From Dehalococcoidia bacterium (GTDB taxonomy: Bacteria > Chloroflexota > Dehalococcoidia > Lucifugimonadales > UBA3495): a stretch of DNA of 64,000 bases. The position numbers were made by a program, and so were the translations under genes. The stretch lies in assembly GCA_965197655.1 (NCBI GenBank), contig OZ240220.1, positions 136,352 through 200,351 of the forward strand, written 5' to 3'. The notes under the pieces were generated by a model. The model was not told where the DNA came from, searched no databases, and saw nothing but the letters and a program-made list of their open reading frames with translations. Below, piece by piece: positions 52,806 to 62,833 of the stretch (position 1 is its first letter; the number at the start of each line of letters is the position of its first letter).

Positions 52806-52903
52806 GCGAAATCGCATTCAGGGATACAAGCTATCCGTCGTTCCTGCGCAGGCAGGACCTCGGCTCTTGAACTTTTAGGTTCCTGCCTTCGCAGGAACGA
52901 CGG
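52806..52903. repeat. palindromic repeat, family 2
   Basis: GCGAAATCGCA ... CCGTCGTTCCTGCGCAGGCAGGAC ... GTTCCTGCCTTCGCAGGAACGACGG. Confidence 0.8.
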
Positions 52904-52957
52904 ACGGGGCGGCCAGCCGCGCCAAGCTATGCCCGACGAGATGTCTCATTCAAAACC

Positions 52958-53716
52958 TTAAATCAGGGCTGCCGGCGTGAATATGCCTTCCATATCTTCG
53001 GTGGTGGCCGGGTTTACCGGGGTCGTCCCCAACTCGGTCTCCATAAACCAGTAAACCTGCTTCAAGTGGTGGGTACTGTGGCTGAGGATGATGTTCAGCA
53101 GCTCCACCACTGTTACCTCTCCGCCGTAGTGGGCCGGTACTACCCGGTCAAAAGCTTCCGTGTTATCGCTGTTCAGGAAATCTACGATATTCTGAATGAC
53201 ACCCTCACCGTACTCGGCAATGGCTTCGGCGGCGTTAACGCTGGTCAGTCTGGCCCGGCAGGCTTGCATATCGTCGGTGGTCATACTACCGGTCTTGTGG
53301 CTGAGCCAAGCCAGTTCAGGGAAAGACATAATGTGGACGATGGTGTCGCGCAGGGTTTCGGGCCGCCAGGACACGTCTCGCTGCAACTGCTCCGGGGCAA
53401 GCTGAAGGGTCACCCGAATAGTGGCGTGCAGGATTTTGTCGTATTTTTCGGCCAGCCAGCCGGTCCTGCCGGACAGGTCAACCTGGGTGTCGAGCTTGAG
53501 GGTGGCAATCAGCTTTTTGGGGAAGTAGCCGATGATAATTTCATCGTCCACCACCGTGACCGGCGCCGACTTGACGCCCCGGCTGTTGAGGAAAGCTTGG
53601 GCTTCCGGTTCGCTGGCAATGTCGTGGTGCTCATACTGAACACCGTTGGACGTCAGGAACTCTTCCAACGTCCGGCAACTGAATCAACCAGGGTTGGTGT
53701 AAACGTGAACGTTCAT
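52958..53716 (-). CDS. candidate selenoprotein: glutaredoxin-like domain (U-F-S-C motif) fused to a DinB/YfiT-like domain
   Basis: ATG 53716 (RBS GGAGAG) reads MNVHVYTNPG[TGA]FSCRTLEEFLTSNGV..., continuous with track ORF 52958..53668. The TGA at 53686-53684 sits where the first Cys of a Grx CxxC would be. The C-terminal SHSTHHLKQVYWF suggests DinB-like (tentative). Confidence 0.6.
53648..53673 (-). other. candidate bacterial SECIS hairpin
   Basis: GGACGT-t-GGAA-gag-TTCC-tg-ACGTCC, starting 10 nt after the in-frame TGA. Confidence 0.4.
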
Positions 53717-53842
53717 ATCTATTTCTCTCCGGCAGCGCTATGGGTATGGTGTTGCCAGAATAGCGGAAACGGGGGTGCTTATCAAGGGCGGCCGGACGGC
53801 ATTCAGAGTCTTTCGGTTCTCAATTTGGGATACTTGGGGCAT

Positions 53843-53941
53843 CGTCATTCCGGCGCAGGCCGGAATCCAGGAAATGCCCGGAGTAGGTCAATGTTCTATG
53901 TGGCGAGGGACTCTGGATTCCGGCTTTCGCCGGAATGACGG
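53843..53941. repeat. palindromic repeat, family 1
   Basis: CGTCATTCCGGCGCAGGCCGGAATCCAG (53843-53870) and CTGGATTCCGGCTTTCGCCGGAATGACGG (53913-53941). Confidence 0.8.
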
Positions 53942-57374: not shown

Positions 57375-57830
57375 TTGCAGCGCAAGTTGACCATTGACCA
57401 GGCAATCCAGGGCACCAAGACCTTTTCCGAAAAGTACGTGGAGCGCGGCCCCTACGAGTTCTTCCCCGAGGCGGAGGTGGTGGAGTTAGTGCAGCAAGGG
57501 CTGGCGGAAAATCAAGTCAACCAGGGCTACCGCTACTGTCCTTGAATGCCCCTCAGCGGCGATCCCGTAGAGGACCGCAAGAAGATTTGCCCCTGTGACC
57601 GTCACCACGAGGACATCCAGCGTGACGGGTTCTGCATTTGAATGTTCTTCGTAAGCGAAGAGTTTCTTCGCAAGTATGAAGCGGGCGAGGACTTTGTCCA
57701 GACCATAGATGAGGCGGTAAAGCCCGGCGAGGGGCTTTTCGACCAGGCTTACCAGTCAAAGGCCGACTTCAAGGGCCAGCAGCGTTCAACGGAACCGGCC
57801 CAGGAGTCAGGCACGGAATCTACCCCGTAG
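57375..57830 (+). CDS. candidate selenoprotein: ferredoxin:thioredoxin reductase catalytic-subunit-like protein with two in-frame TGA codons
   Basis: TTG start 7 nt after AGGAGA. Translation ...FSEKYVERG...GYRYCP[TGA]MPLSGDPVEDRKKICPCDRHHEDIQRDGFCI[TGA]MFFVSEEF..., TGAs at 57543-57545 and 57639-57641. The track shows only the last fragment, 57642..57830. Confidence 0.65.
57556..57578 (+). other. candidate SECIS hairpin for TGA-1 of the FTR-like gene (imperfect)
   Basis: GCGG-cga-TCC-cgtaga-GGA-CCGC, starting 10 nt after the TGA. Confidence 0.3.
57655..57671 (+). other. candidate SECIS hairpin for TGA-2 of the FTR-like gene
   Basis: Perfect 7-bp stem GCGAAGA-gtt-TCTTCGC, starting 13 nt after the TGA. 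Confidence 0.5.
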
Positions 57831-57904
57831 CTGACAGCGGAACAAAGTTAGTTAACGATAGCGGTATCTTCGTCAAATGCACCAGAAGAAGGAGGCGTCT
57901 GAAT

Positions 57905-58141
57905 ATGGACATAACCGTATTTACCTCGGCGGGTTGAGGCCCCTGTCACATGGTGAAAGCGTATCTTTCACGAAAGGGAATTGCCTTTACCGAGCGGAAC
58001 GTATCCGAAGATGACGATGCCCGGGAGTCCCTCATGGCCATGGGCCTGCGAAGCACGCCGGTTACCGTCATCGGCGACCAGAACGTGGTGGGCTACAGTC
58101 CCCCCAAGCTGGAAGCCGCGCTGAAGGCCGCCGGCGCCTGA
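57905..58141 (+). CDS. candidate selenoprotein: small glutaredoxin/NrdH-like redoxin with U-G-P-C motif
   Basis: ATG 57905 after GAAGGAGG reads MDITVFTSAG[TGA]GPCHMVKAYLSRKGIAFTERNV..., continuous with track ORF 57950..58141. TGA at 57935-57937. Confidence 0.7.
57953..57971 (+). other. candidate SECIS hairpin for the UGPC redoxin
   Basis: Perfect 7-bp stem GTGAAAG-cgtat-CTTTCAC, starting 15 nt after the TGA. Confidence 0.5.
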
Positions 58142-61414: not shown

Positions 61415-62833
61415 TTAGGGCGCTCCTTGCACCACTTCCGTGTCGGGGCGGAAGGCGGCCCAGGCAAACCAGAAGTGGTTGGCGTGAACGATAGGAGTCA
61501 ACTGCTTGCCGGCGGAGGGGCCGGTTATCGCCTGACCCAGGATGTTCCACCGGCTGCCCGTTTCCGCATCGATGAACCCGTCCAGCGCATCCTCCGCGGC
61601 GCGGAAAGTTAGCCGCTGCCCATCTAACTCCCTGGCGAAGATGCCCGTTGCTCCGACCTCTTTGGAGTCTGCGATGGAAGGCCCGTCCAGCGCAGAGCGG
61701 GCGCCGGGCTTGAAAAAGACTACCAGGTCTTGCCCGCCTACCGTGTGGTGGACTACGCCTTTGGCCTCCAACAGGGAGAAGGGAAAGGCGGCGGATGCCT
61801 CACCCACGGTCAGGGCCGCCACCCGCTCCATCGCGAGCAGCCGGTCGTCATCCTTGCCAAAGAAGAGGAAGGGCGAGCGGTCCACCCGGTCGTAGCCGAC
61901 GTAGGGGTTGCGGCCATAATCCCGGGGAAACCCGGTCTCCCGGGACAGCACGGCGGAGTCGGGATAGGTGGCCTTGAAATCCTCCCAGGCGATGATGGTG
62001 GCAGGGAGGAGGGCCAACTGTTTGCCGGTCAGTTCCCCCACTATTCCCTCGCCGGTTAGCTGCTGCCACCAGGACTCGGTTTGCCGGTCCCACATTATCA
62101 GGTCGCTGTTTCGCAGATTGCCGGACACGCCGAAGTCATAAACCTCTCCGTCCAGCCGCCGGTCAAAGACAATCGCCGAGTTGCAGAGGGGGCAGAAGGT
62201 GGCAACCACCGGAACGCCGCCCACTGTGTCATTGACGATTTCATGCCAAGTGAGAATCTGGAGCGGGTACGCCTTGGTATCCCCGTTTAACTCAAAGGCA
62301 ATGACCGGCTCCCGAGCCTCCAGCCAGTCGTCGGCCTGCGCTACGGTGGTGAAACTGGGAAAGTCCAGGGGCGGAATCCCGTCCCGGGGTACGCCGCCGG
62401 AGAATATCTCGTTGTAGGGGATGCTGTGTTTGCTGAAGTCGGTTTTCCAATCACCGCGGTAAACCCCGGCAGTCCGCCTCTCCCGCTCCCAATCAGTCAG
62501 GGGTGTAGTTGGCGTGGGGGTTGGGCGGGCGGTGGGTTCCGGTGCGGATGTGAGGTTTGCGGCACTTTCGGCGGCAGCAGGTGCGCTCGGCAGGGTAGTT
62601 GGGGATAGAGGGACAGGCGTTGGGGAATTGGCGGCAACCGGCTCGCCCGTTGCTGACGGCGGCGTTTCCACTCTGTCTGCTGCTGTTGCCGTCGGGTTGC
62701 CGGTTGTCACTTCGTTAACCGGGGCCGCGCCGGAGCCGCAGGCCAGGCCAGTGATTATTGTCACGATTAGAACCGCGCCGGTTAAGCCGGCCCGCAGGTT
62801 TCGCCTGAATCCGATTATCAATTTTAACTCCAC
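61415..62833 (-). CDS. DUF3179-domain secreted protein with Pro/Thr/Ala-rich linker
   Basis: 472 aa with an N-terminal TM and lipobox-like LACGS. PRDGIPPLDFPSF and FCPLCNSA are DUF3179 motifs. Confidence 0.75.
   Translation of the reverse strand: MELKLIIGFRRNLRAGLTGAVLIVTIITGLACGSGAAPVNEVTTGNPTATAADRVETPPSATGEPVAANSPTPVPLSPTTLPSAPAAAESAANLTSAPEPTARPTPTPTTPLTDWERERRTAGVYRGDWKTDFSKHSIPYNEIFSGGVPRDGIPPLDFPSFTTVAQADDWLEAREPVIAFELNGDTKAYPLQILTWHEIVNDTVGGVPVVATFCPLCNSAIVFDRRLDGEVYDFGVSGNLRNSDLIMWDRQTESWWQQLTGEGIVGELTGKQLALLPATIIAWEDFKATYPDSAVLSRETGFPRDYGRNPYVGYDRVDRSPFLFFGKDDDRLLAMERVAALTVGEASAAFPFSLLEAKGVVHHTVGGQDLVVFFKPGARSALDGPSIADSKEVGATGIFARELDGQRLTFRAAEDALDGFIDAETGSRWNILGQAITGPSAGKQLTPIVHANHFWFAWAAFRPDTEVVQGAP

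What the first reader, a model, noticed from the sequence alone, without database searches (positions are those of the whole stretch)
52958..53716. Third candidate selenoprotein: glutaredoxin-like U-F-S-C domain fused to a DinB-like domain
On the minus strand, ATG 53716 reads MNVHVYTNPG[TGA]FSCRTLEEFLTSNGVQYEHHDIASEPEAQAFLNSRGVKSAPVTVVDDEIIIGYFPKKL... This is a paralog of the 57905 redoxin, again with TGA (53686-53684) at the first position of the CxxC motif. A bulged hairpin (53673-53648) starts 10 nt downstream. The ORF track starts the gene at a TTG just past the TGA, which would delete the redox motif. The C-terminal ~160 aa looks DinB/YfiT-like (SHSTHHLKQVYWF). That fold is often tied to thiol-dependent chemistry, which makes a Grx-DinB fusion plausible. 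Together with 57375-58141 this gives four putative Sec codons within 5 kb.
Basis: partly seen in the sequence, partly recalled or inferred. Interest (0 to 1): 0.6.

Follow-up and report, generated by a model that had tools for sequence, protein, structure and literature searches.

The report
Unannotated selenocysteine glutaredoxin–DinB fusion gene
A gene that every database cuts short at a TGA "stop" most likely reads that TGA as selenocysteine, giving a two-domain enzyme (a glutaredoxin-like head with a selenium active site fused to a metal-binding DinB domain) that is common in marine and sponge-associated Chloroflexota and absent from the selenoprotein lists I could check.

Summary
On the minus strand, ATG 53716 opens a 252-codon frame with one in-frame TGA (53686-53684) at the first position of a CxxC-type motif (U-F-S-C).

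- **Domains:** the product is a Pfam Glutaredoxin domain plus a DinB/DinB_2 domain. A confident AlphaFold model matches both folds.
- **TGA conservation:** 41 of 42 distinct orthologues from Dehalococcoidia/SAR202 genomes keep the TGA. So do five divergent family members (about 26-44% identical). Each has an ATG, a Shine-Dalgarno site and a conserved N-terminal peptide upstream.
- **Cys forms:** distant full-length Grx-DinB homologues, abundant in soil and freshwater and present in Burkholderiales isolates, carry Cys at this column.
- **SECIS:** published bacterial SECIS criteria are met downstream of the codon in 30 of 39 Sec forms, against 3 of 73 Cys-form controls.
- **Sec decoding:** a curated FtrB double-selenoprotein lies 4 kb away. 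A published SAR202 genome carrying an orthologue has SelA, SelB and SelD.
- **Annotation:** public gene calls start at the TTG after the TGA and delete the redox motif.
- **Open points:** the function is inferred, not shown. The sel genes of this particular genome were not seen.

It is a new architectural variant of the known Sec-glutaredoxin kind.

The parts
52958..53716 (-). Full coding sequence of the Grx-DinB selenoprotein: 252 codons, Sec at codon 11, TAA stop at 52960-52958.
   Evidence: sequence and translation; Pfam; orthologues read through the TGA.
53714..53716 (-). True start codon ATG.
   Evidence: an ATG lies 10-11 codons upstream of the TGA in every locus. Sequences diverge upstream of it and are conserved downstream.
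53727..53730 (-). Shine-Dalgarno-like GGAG, 10 nt before the ATG.
   Evidence: GGAG or GGAGG sits at the equivalent place in all orthologous loci.
53757..53785 (-). Sigma-70-like promoter, TTGATA-17 nt-TATTCT. The -10 hexamer lies in a CCGCTATTCTGGCA motif conserved upstream in many orthologous loci.
   Evidence: consensus scan: 1 found, 0.5 expected; conserved motif. This is a consensus match only.
53684..53686 (-). In-frame TGA read as selenocysteine, the first position of the U-F-S-C redox motif.
   Evidence: 41 of 42 orthologues have TGA. (Cys in distant homologues). (TGA in five divergent sub-clades).
53642..53676 (-). Bacterial SECIS-like hairpin. The core is 53648-53673, the apical loop GAG is at 53660-53662, and 21 nt separate the UGA from the loop.
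   Evidence: fold. (meets published bSECIS criteria, hairpin energy -12.1 kcal/mol). (pair conservation). (reduced synonymous diversity).
53666..53668 (-). TTG used as the start by public gene calls. It is a mis-annotated start; the codon encodes Leu17.
   Evidence: ORF 52958..53668; P0001 and nearly all of the 120 listed database entries begin MEEFL....
53534..53710 (-). Glutaredoxin/NrdH-like thioredoxin-fold domain (Pfam match, residues 3-61; the fold extends to about residue 75).
   Evidence: (beta1-[UxxC]-alpha1 topology). (cGrx1, BC3987 and NrdH; target-normalised TM 0.85-0.96).
53009..53416 (-). DinB/YfiT-like four-helix-bundle domain (Pfam DinB match, residues 101-236).
   Evidence: (YfiT, DR0053, YjoA, MST). 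(family profile against PDB: YfiT 5e-7).
53333..53335 (-). His128, the first ligand of the predicted metal-binding His triad.
   Evidence: at least 90% conserved over 73 family members. (aligns with the corresponding His of YizA, 2qe9).
53066..53080 (-). His213-x3-His217 in SHSTHHLKQ, the second and third ligands of the predicted His triad.

Best explanation
This is a genuine selenoprotein gene that has been mis-annotated.

**Shown or strongly supported.** Translation starts at ATG 53716. The UGA at codon 11 is recoded to selenocysteine with the help of a bacterial SECIS hairpin that starts 7-10 nt downstream inside the coding sequence. The 252-residue product has two domains. The first is an NrdH/YruB-like glutaredoxin domain whose attacking residue is Sec (U-F-S-C at the N-terminus of helix alpha1). 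The second is a DinB/YfiT-type four-helix bundle that keeps the metal-binding His triad (H128, H213, H217).

**Inferred (about 35% for the specific chemistry).** The DinB domain binds a divalent metal and an electrophilic or oxidised substrate, as in bacillithiol and mycothiol S-transferases. The tethered redoxin domain supplies the selenol/thiol pair in cis. It either acts as the nucleophile at the metal site or resolves the mixed (seleno)sulfide formed there.

The oxidised U-x-x-C would then be re-reduced by a cellular reductase. One candidate is the FtrB-type double selenoprotein encoded 4 kb away, beside a paralogous Sec-redoxin. Sec in place of Cys would raise nucleophilicity and resistance to over-oxidation.
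For: **Reading frame and start**
- TGA is invariant in 41 of 42 distinct orthologues from Dehalococcoidia/SAR202/Chloroflexota genomes and metagenome contigs.
- The peptide [VI]-H-V-Y-T-N-P-G before the TGA is conserved with synonymous codon changes.
- Sequence conservation ends at an ATG preceded by GGAG. A promoter-like site lies 40 nt upstream of it.

**Sec/Cys pair**
- 16 full-length representatives from distant clades carry PGC[ST]SC, with Cys in the TGA column.
- Cys forms are abundant: at least 573 metagenome matches, plus Burkholderiales isolates.

**Independent Sec lineages**
- Five further sub-clades, about 26-44% identical in the, 38 alignments, also have TGA in this column. These are L053, L054, L135, L136 and L137.

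**SECIS**
- Published bSECIS criteria (PMC13188914) are met by 30 of 39 Sec forms against 3 of 73 Cys controls.
- The mean folding z-score is -1.29 for Sec forms and -0.18 for Cys forms.
- Divergent Sec forms have different hairpin sequences at the same distance from the UGA.
- Synonymous diversity is about halved across the first 30 codons or so.
- 88.7% of cells pair, against 33-51% in slid controls.

**Sec decoding in the lineage**
- The window encodes an NF041072 FtrB double-selenoprotein (226 bits against a 160 cut-off) with both TGAs at CxU positions.
- The window also encodes a Sec-redoxin paralogue.
- L046 is SAR202 bin22, for which Slaby et al. list SelA, SelB and SelD.
- BSepDB ranks Dehalococcoidia genomes among the ten most selenoprotein-rich bacteria.
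- TGA also serves as an ordinary stop in the window: 24 of 74 ORFs of 200 aa or more.

**Domains**
- Pfam matches are above the gathering scores.
- The AlphaFold2 model has pLDDT 92.8 and pTM 0.86.
- Foldseek matches both folds.
- The His triad is at least 90% conserved.
Against: - No selA, selB, selD or tRNA-Sec was found in the window or in about 0.8 Mb of related flanks. The machinery of this exact genome is therefore not shown.
- Rfam gives no SECIS hit. This is uninformative, because bacterial SECIS elements have no general model there.
- The window's hairpin is not unusually stable on its own (z = -0.5 to -0.9).
- Only one base pair shows compensatory changes within the close orthologues.
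- 9 of 39 Sec forms, including L054, L030 and L007, have hairpins without a G in the first two loop positions.
- One orthologue (L006) has CGA instead of TGA. It comes from a 2x-coverage contig whose other genes are split.
- There is no experimental evidence of selenium incorporation.
- There is no conserved operon partner, and no biochemical data exist for any family member. The enzymatic mechanism is inference only.
Confidence: 0.85

Rival explanations
1. The database annotation is right. The gene starts at TTG 53668 and encodes a DinB protein with a vestigial, motif-less Grx remnant. The upstream ATG...TGA is a chance or leader mini-ORF, or the gene is a pseudogene.
For: Gene callers give this 236-240 aa product for nearly all of the 120 listed database entries (988 hits in all). 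The hairpin's energy is unremarkable in the single sequence.
Against: - The 10 codons before the TGA and the 5 codons between the TGA and the TTG are conserved at the amino-acid level, with synonymous changes, across 42 genes. They align to the beta1 strand and CxxC motif of Cys-form homologues.
- A product starting at residue 17 would lack beta1 and the active site of the thioredoxin fold.
- A nonsense mutation would not be kept as TGA in 41 of 42 orthologues and in five sub-clades of about 26-44% identity.
Confidence: 0.03
2. The TGA is read through, but not as selenocysteine. It would instead be read by genome-wide or local reassignment (Trp or Gly, as in codes 4 and 25) or by near-cognate suppression.
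For: Some public entries translate the codon as W (P0049, P0060, P0138).
Against: - Those W residues are gene-calling artefacts. The DNA has TGA and does not translate to the entry under table 11.
- TGA ends about a third of the long ORFs in the window.
- Homologues have Cys at this column, not Trp or Gly.
- A SECIS-like hairpin accompanies the TGA but not the Cys codons.
- A curated double-selenoprotein is encoded in the same window.
- SelA, SelB and SelD are reported for a genome that holds an orthologue.
Confidence: 0.03
3. It is a real selenoprotein, but the two domains do not share one active site. The Sec-redoxin domain is an ordinary disulfide reductase or electron-entry module, re-reduced for example by the nearby FtrB selenoprotein. 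It serves a DinB metalloenzyme that uses a free low-molecular-weight thiol, or it regulates that enzyme.
For: - The Grx domain is closest to stand-alone redoxins: cGrx1, BC3987 and NrdH.
- A stand-alone Sec paralogue sits next to FtrB.
- From background knowledge, redoxin plus DinB-type S-transferase partnerships exist as separate proteins in the mycothiol and bacillithiol systems.
Against: - The fusion is kept over very large divergence (21-28% identity between Cys and Sec forms).
- The model predicts a fixed inter-domain packing (pTM 0.86). This fits a joint site equally well.
- No data discriminate between the two readings.
Confidence: 0.35

Closest known systems
Selenocysteine-containing glutaredoxins (Pfam PF00462, UxxC motif; for example Clostridium/Alkaliphilus oremlandii Grx1, PDB 7c10 and 7c12)
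   Same: - Thioredoxin fold with Sec at the N-terminal, attacking position of the CxxC motif.
- 38% identity and target-normalised TM 0.92-0.96 to cGrx1.
- Listed as an experimentally verified selenoprotein family.
- The SECIS hairpin lies just after the UGA, inside the coding sequence.
   Different: Known Sec-glutaredoxins are single-domain proteins of 75-90 aa. Here the domain is fused to a DinB domain of about 170 aa. The motif is U-F-S-C. The host lineage is Chloroflexota rather than Clostridia or Deltaproteobacteria.
NrdH / YruB-family glutaredoxin-like redoxins (TIGR02194, TIGR02196)
   Same: They are the best NCBIfam matches of the N-terminal domain (E = 8e-16 and 6e-12). Structural matches include NrdH and BC3987.
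   Different: Scores of 58 and 46 bits are far below the curated cut-offs of 88.55 and 85.75, so the protein is not a member. There is no nrd gene context. It has Sec instead of Cys and carries a fused DinB domain.
DinB/YfiT-superfamily thiol S-transferases (B. subtilis YfiT/BstA 1rxq; M. tuberculosis mycothiol S-transferase Rv0443 8f5v; DR0053 6iz2)
   Same: Four-helix-bundle fold (target-normalised TM 0.60-0.83). Pfam DinB and DinB_2 are above the gathering scores. The H...H-x3-H metal triad is conserved.
   Different: - Sequence identity is only 11-19%.
- NCBIfam equivalog scores are far below the cut-offs: 21.8 against 170 for MST, and 23.7 against 160 for YfiT in P0128.
- Those enzymes use a free low-molecular-weight thiol and have no fused redoxin domain.
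Cys-form Grx-DinB fusion proteins of Burkholderiales and soil or freshwater metagenomes, annotated 'DinB family protein', 'glutaredoxin domain-containing protein' or 'NrdH-redoxin'
   Same: Same two-domain architecture and length (250-276 aa), same His triad, and a CxxC motif in the column of the TGA.
   Different: They have Cys (C-[ST]-S-C) instead of Sec (U-F-[ST]-C) and are only 21-25% identical. They lack the SECIS-like hairpin. They are uncharacterised, with no dedicated NCBIfam model.
Glutathione S-transferases and Grx2-type proteins (thioredoxin-fold N-domain plus helical C-domain)
   Same: The overall logic is the same: an N-terminal thioredoxin-fold thiol module packed on an all-helical C-terminal substrate domain. 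Weak Foldseek hits were found.
   Different: There is no real superposition (rmsd 12-17 A, TM 0.25-0.35). The helical domain is a DinB bundle, not a GST_C domain. This is an analogy only.
UXX-star and HUGP/GUXX-star glutaredoxin-like selenoproteins (NF041212, NF041211, NF045501)
   Same: The Grx-like fold gives weak matches (39 bits and below). This group includes a precedent for a Grx-like Sec domain fused to another domain.
   Different: Scores are below the cut-offs (39 against 66; 23.7 against 325). In those families Sec lies three residues from the C-terminus. Here it is at residue 11, in the classical CxxC position.

Membership tests
Bacterial selenoprotein gene (Sec-UGA recoding) | In-frame UGA conserved in orthologues, with coding conservation on both sides | tested here: met
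   41 of 42 distinct orthologues have TGA, and five more sub-clades do too. The flanking codons vary only synonymously.
Bacterial selenoprotein gene (Sec-UGA recoding) | Homologues with Cys aligned to the UGA (a Sec/Cys pair) | tested here: met
   16 full-length representatives carry PGC[ST]SC at the column.
Bacterial selenoprotein gene (Sec-UGA recoding) | bSECIS hairpin: 3-9 nt loop, at least 4 bp upper stem, G in loop positions 1-2, 16-37 nt from the UGA, energy of -7.5 kcal/mol or lower | tested here: met
   Window: loop GAG, 4 bp upper stem, 21 nt spacing, -12.1 kcal/mol. 30 of 39 Sec forms pass, against 3 of 73 Cys controls.
Bacterial selenoprotein gene (Sec-UGA recoding) | selA, selB, selC and selD present in the same genome | tested here: inconclusive
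   None were found in the window or in about 0.8 Mb of related flanks. Indirect support: an FtrB double-selenoprotein in the window, SelA, SelB and SelD reported for SAR202 bin22, which holds orthologue L046, and selenoprotein-rich Dehalococcoidia genomes in BSepDB.
Bacterial selenoprotein gene (Sec-UGA recoding) | Selenium demonstrably incorporated at the UGA position | not testable with these tools
   This needs 75Se labelling or mass spectrometry.
Glutaredoxin (Pfam PF00462) thioredoxin-fold redoxin | Profile match above the gathering score | tested here: met
   37.8 bits against 22.9, residues 3-61 covering profile positions 1-60 of 60.
Glutaredoxin (Pfam PF00462) thioredoxin-fold redoxin | beta1-[CxxC]-alpha1 thioredoxin fold with the motif at the N-terminus of the helix | tested here: met
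   The AlphaFold2 model has strand 3-7 and helix 12-23. Target-normalised TM is 0.92-0.96 to cGrx1.
NrdH-redoxin / YruB equivalogs (TIGR02194, TIGR02196) | Score above NCBIfam's curated cut-off | tested here: not met
   45.7 against 85.75, and 58.3 against 88.55.
DinB/YfiT superfamily (PF05163, PF12867) | Profile match above the gathering score | tested here: met
   DinB scores 29.5 against 23. DinB_2 scores 25.0 against 24.8, which is marginal. The family profile against PDB gives YfiT 5e-7.
DinB/YfiT superfamily (PF05163, PF12867) | Four-helix-bundle fold | tested here: met
   Foldseek probability 1.00 and target-normalised TM 0.67-0.83 to 1rxq, 6iz2, 3dka and 2p1a.
DinB/YfiT superfamily (PF05163, PF12867) | Metal-binding His triad (H ... 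H-x3-H) | tested here: met
   H128, H213 and H217 are at least 90% conserved in 73 members and align to the His residues of YizA. Metal binding itself was not tested.
Bacillithiol / mycothiol S-transferase equivalogs (NF009807, NF047843) | Score above the curated cut-off; thiol-transferase activity | tested here: not met
   MST_Rv0443 scores 21.8 against 170. YfiT scores 23.7 against 160 for the relative P0128. Activity is not testable here.
UXX-star glutaredoxin-like selenoproteins (NF041212 and relatives) | Score above the cut-off and Sec three residues from the C-terminus | tested here: not met
   39 against 66 bits. Sec is at residue 11 of 252.
Glutathione S-transferase | GST_N plus GST_C domains that superpose on GST structures | tested here: not met
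   GST_N_3 scores 18.1 against 22, and GST_N scores 13.4 against 20.9. Foldseek gives rmsd 12-17 A.

The most novel reading that the evidence does not exclude
The Grx-DinB fusion is a self-contained metallo-selenoenzyme. The tethered Sec (or Cys in other lineages) enters the DinB His-triad metal site and is itself the activated nucleophile. The enzyme would then perform S-/Se-transferase or reductase chemistry without a free low-molecular-weight thiol. It would be the first selenoenzyme of the DinB superfamily. In this family most of the sequence diversity appears to be Sec forms (43 of 59 full-size cluster representatives are N-terminally truncated calls), hidden by systematic mis-annotation.
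Probability: 0.2. Interest if true: 0.65.

Novelty: new variant of a known kind. Interest (0 to 1): 0.5.

Why it matters
**Annotation.** Nearly all of the 120 listed public entries of this family (988 hits in all) are called 16 residues short, or with a spurious Trp. That removes the catalytic U-x-x-C motif, so the family looks like a plain "DinB family protein".

**Selenoproteome.** The family adds a domain architecture (Sec-redoxin fused to a DinB metal domain) that is absent from a 2026 inventory of 119 prokaryotic selenoprotein families. It comes from SAR202/Dehalococcoidia, a lineage already noted as unusually selenoprotein-rich and ecologically important in the deep ocean and in sponges.

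**Enzymology.** DinB-type thiol transferases normally depend on bacillithiol or mycothiol. A version with a built-in selenol/thiol pair suggests how organisms without those cofactors might do the same chemistry. The Cys forms in culturable Burkholderiales make this directly testable.

Tried and rejected
- **Rfam scans.** I scanned the whole window at gathering threshold and the local 300 nt at E up to 10. Only a tRNA-Asn and two chance hits came back. Rfam has no general bacterial SECIS model, so this is uninformative.
- **Search for Sec machinery.** ARAGORN on 39 loci, and tblastn with E. coli SelA, SelB and SelD against the window plus about 0.8 Mb of flanks, found nothing. The rest of the genome cannot be reached with these tools.
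- **Exhaustive search with the U-to-C sequence.** I used the full-length relative P0059 instead.
- **Metagenome scan with the mixed alignment A2.** It failed because no stretch was conserved enough. I repeated it with an alignment of Cys forms only.
- **AFDB50 fold search.** The library was not available.
- **Model coordinates.** They were not exposed, so I could not measure the distance from Sec to the His triad.
- **Conserved neighbours.** Among SAR202 loci there is only clade-level synteny. Among 80 Cys-form loci there is no conserved partner, only shadow ORFs and Bug/TctC-type binding proteins. An operon-based functional inference was therefore dropped.
- **Literature.** No held paper combines selenoprotein with DinB in a relevant way. 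BSepDB supplements are not held, so I cannot exclude that this protein is filed there under "Grx".
- **Readings rejected.** I rejected the pseudogene or uORF reading, code-4/25 reassignment, NrdH membership, UXX-star membership and GST membership. The reasons are in the rival explanations and membership tests.
Full report
**1. The observation**

On the minus strand, ATG 53716-53714 opens the frame MNVHVYTNPG-TGA-FSCRTLEEFLTSNGVQYEHH... The frame runs to TAA 52960-52958, 252 codons in all, with a single in-frame TGA at 53686-53684. The mechanical ORF list starts the gene at TTG 53668 (236 aa), just past the TGA. The coordinates, the peptide, the hairpin position (53673-53648, 10 nt after the TGA) and the remark about the ORF track are all correct.

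**2. The domains**

I replaced the TGA with Cys for the profile searches.
- Pfam Glutaredoxin matches residues 3-61 (37.8 bits against a gathering score of 22.9).
- Pfam DinB matches residues 101-236 (29.5 against 23).
- Pfam DinB_2 matches residues 99-221 (25.0 against 24.8).
- NCBIfam gives only sub-threshold matches: YruB and NrdH redoxins, UXX-star selenoproteins and mycothiol transferase. No curated family covers this protein.

An AlphaFold2 model of the full-length relative P0059, built with a 73-sequence alignment, is confident (pLDDT 92.8, pTM 0.86). It shows strand 3-7 followed by helix 12-23, which is the classical thioredoxin-fold position of a CxxC motif.

Foldseek against the PDB matches both halves:
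- The N-terminal part matches Clostridium oremlandii Grx1, B. cereus BC3987 and NrdH (target-normalised TM 0.85-0.96).
- The C-terminal part matches YfiT, DR0053, YjoA, BCE_2162 and M. tuberculosis mycothiol S-transferase (target-normalised TM 0.60-0.83).

Three histidines are at least 90% conserved over 73 family members. In the window protein they are H128 and H213-x3-H217. They align with the corresponding histidines of the DinB-family structure YizA. From background knowledge, this H...H-x3-H triad is the metal site of YfiT-type enzymes.

**3. Is the TGA a coding codon?**

*Public gene calls.* A search of 5.8 billion proteins returned 988 relatives. Nearly all of the 120 listed are called at 236-240 aa and begin MEEFL..., that is, at the codon after the motif. 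Three "full-length" entries have W or R at the column. For the two W entries the DNA has TGA, so they are code-4 gene-calling artefacts. The R entry has CGA, on a 2x-coverage contig whose neighbouring genes are split.

*Orthologues.* A scan of one genome per species found 39 loci in Dehalococcoidia, SAR202 and Chloroflexota genomes. Together with the metagenome contigs these give 42 distinct genes, and 41 have TGA at the column.
- The eight residues before the TGA are conserved with synonymous changes, for example GTN, CAY, TAY and CCN.
- Every locus has an ATG 10-11 codons upstream, preceded by GGAG(G). Similarity ends upstream of that ATG.
- A sigma-70-like promoter match (TTGATA-17-TATTCT, 53785-53757) lies about 40 nt upstream. 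It overlaps a motif conserved in many orthologous loci.

*Cys forms.* An exhaustive search of 1.84 billion cluster representatives found only 198 relatives. Sixteen full-size ones are full length and carry PGC[ST]SC, with Cys in the TGA column. Such Cys forms are abundant in soil, sediment and freshwater metagenomes (at least 573 matches). They also occur in Burkholderiales isolates under generic names.

*Other Sec lineages.* Forty-three other full-size representatives are called from inside the Grx domain. I fetched DNA for five of them, about 26-44% identical in the, 38 alignments. All five have an in-frame TGA at the same column, with an ATG and a Shine-Dalgarno site upstream. One of them (L136) has the variant motif C-A-U-F-H-S.

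This is the classical Sec/Cys signature, repeated in several independent lineages.

**4. The SECIS element**

The window's segment folds into a bulged hairpin. Its apical loop is GAG, 21 nt after the UGA, and the hairpin energy is -12.1 kcal/mol. Taken alone it is not unusually stable (z = -0.5 to -0.9). The comparative evidence is what counts.
- **Published criteria.** The criteria are a 3-9 nt loop, an upper stem of at least 4 bp, a G in loop positions 1-2, a spacing of 16-37 nt and an energy of -7.5 kcal/mol or lower (PMC13188914). In the minimum-free-energy structure, 30 of 39 distinct Sec-form sequences meet them, against 3 of 73 Cys-form sequences at the homologous position. Allowing structures within 2 kcal/mol of the optimum gives 33 of 39 against 6 of 73.
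- **Stability.** Mean folding z-scores are -1.29 for Sec forms and -0.18 for Cys forms, although the Cys forms have the higher GC content.
- **Divergent sequences, same position.** Divergent Sec forms have different hairpin sequences at the same distance from the UGA. Their loops are GUU, AGUUG, GUU and GCUU.
- **Synonymous constraint.** Synonymous-site diversity is about half the gene-wide level over the first 30 codons or so (0.35-0.45 against a median of 0.69).
- **Pairing within close orthologues.** 88.7% of cells pair, against 33-51% when the partners are slid. Only one pair (U-A, C-G or G-U) shows compensatory change.

Two caveats apply. The Sec forms are phylogenetically correlated, so the real sample is about six lineages. 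Nine of the 39 lack the loop G.

**5. Does the organism decode Sec?**

No sel gene or tRNA-Sec lies in the window or in about 0.8 Mb of related flanks. Several indirect lines support Sec decoding all the same.
- The gene at 57375-57830 (+) scores 226 bits (cut-off 160) against NF041072, "FtrB family double-selenoprotein". Its TGAs are at 57543-57545 and 57639-57641, in CxU motifs.
- A stand-alone redoxin at 57905-58141 has its TGA (57935-57937) in the same column. It is 34% identical to the fusion's Grx domain and has its own bSECIS-type hairpin.
- Locus L046 (83% identical orthologue, with TGA) is contig MPMM01000001 of SAR202 bin22. Slaby et al. 2017 list SelA, SelB and SelD for that bin and for all five of their SAR202 bins (PMC5649159, Table S4).
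- BSepDB lists two Dehalococcoidia genomes among the ten bacteria with the most selenoprotein genes (PMC13326102).
- TGA is also used as an ordinary stop in the window, in 24 of 74 ORFs of 200 aa or more. This excludes genome-wide reassignment.

**6. The likely mechanism**

*Shown or strongly supported:* UGA-11 is recoded to Sec through a hairpin inside the coding sequence. The product is a redoxin domain with Sec at the attacking position of UxxC, fused to a DinB-type domain that keeps its His triad.

*Inferred:* the DinB domain binds a metal and a substrate, as the bacillithiol and mycothiol S-transferases do. The tethered selenol/thiol pair acts in cis, either as the nucleophile or to resolve a mixed (seleno)sulfide. 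The motif is then re-reduced by a cellular reductase.

The FtrB(U,U) and Grx(U) pair lies 3-5 kb away in 17 of 39 related genomes. This makes an FtrB-type reductase a candidate, but the co-location is clade-level synteny, not a conserved operon. No conserved partner gene was found.

I put about 0.85-0.9 on "real selenoprotein of this architecture" and about 0.35 on the shared-active-site chemistry.

**7. Comparison with what is known, and novelty**

Sec-containing glutaredoxins with a UxxC motif are an experimentally verified family. The 2026 inventory of 119 prokaryotic selenoprotein families lists them. It also lists ferredoxin-thioredoxin reductase and DUF3179, which both occur in this window. 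That inventory contains no DinB, YfiT or mycothiol-type entry. No held paper links selenoproteins with DinB in a relevant way. NCBIfam has no model for either the Sec form or the Cys form.

The thing is therefore best filed as a new architectural variant of a known kind. I cannot exclude that homology-based resources such as BSepDB already count these genes under "Grx".

**8. Verdict**

It is a solid candidate for a new selenoprotein subfamily, and it is mis-annotated throughout the public entries I examined. Interest is moderate: valuable for selenoproteome and DinB-enzyme specialists, but not a conceptual surprise.

Noticed in passing
window 57375-57830 (+): This is an FtrB-family double-selenoprotein (NF041072, 226 bits against a 160 cut-off). 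Its in-frame TGAs are at 57543-57545 (C-P-U) and 57639-57641 (C-I-U). Public gene calls split it into fragments of 56 and 62 aa. It is conserved, with both TGAs, in 17 of 39 related loci.
   Followed up: partly
window 57905-58141 (+): This is a stand-alone NrdH/YruB-like redoxin, MDITVFTSAG-U-GPC, with its TGA at 57935-57937. It has a bSECIS-type hairpin (loop CGUAU, 22 nt spacing, -16.6 kcal/mol). It sits directly downstream of the FtrB gene and is a likely reductase-redoxin pair. It is called as a 63-aa fragment in databases.
   Followed up: partly
window 52834-52904 and 53843-53940; 22 copies in all, clustered at 52.8-59.4 kb, with others at 2152, 5593, 15492, 27289 and 63796: A dispersed REP-like palindromic element (core GTCRTTCCKGCGMAGGC, usually as inverted pairs with 24-28 nt arms) flanks this gene and other genes. 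There are 22 matches, against 0.11 expected by chance.
   Followed up: partly
window 61415-62833 (-): A DUF3179 (PF11376) protein of about 470 aa. This family is listed among predicted selenoprotein families (UxxC/T). Here it appears as an uninterrupted ORF, presumably a Cys form.
   Followed up: no
L005, L007 (P0049, P0060, P0138): Public protein entries show Trp at the Sec column because short contigs were called with genetic code 4. One such cluster has 116 member sequences. These artefacts could mislead Sec/Cys-pair searches.
   Followed up: yes
L006 4089-4091: This is the only orthologue without TGA at the column. It has CGA (Arg), on a 2x-coverage long-read contig with many split genes. 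A sequencing error is likely, but a real substitution is not excluded.
   Followed up: partly
L136 372-374: A divergent family member has the motif C-A-U-F-H-S. Sec is kept, the resolving Cys is replaced by Ser, and an extra Cys lies two residues upstream. This suggests a CxU-type or monothiol-like variant.
   Followed up: no
family-wide (representatives P0121-P0269): Of 59 full-size cluster representatives that carry the DinB His motif, 43 are called from inside the Grx domain and only 16 are full-length Cys forms. All five divergent truncated ones tested, plus the SAR202 group itself, have the TGA. Sec forms may therefore make up most of the family's diversity.
   Followed up: partly
window 53757-53775 and the upstream regions of L014-L028 and L046: A non-coding motif, CCGCTATTCTGGCA, is conserved about 30-45 nt upstream of the ATG in many orthologous loci. 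It contains the -10-like TATTCT of the predicted promoter.
   Followed up: partly
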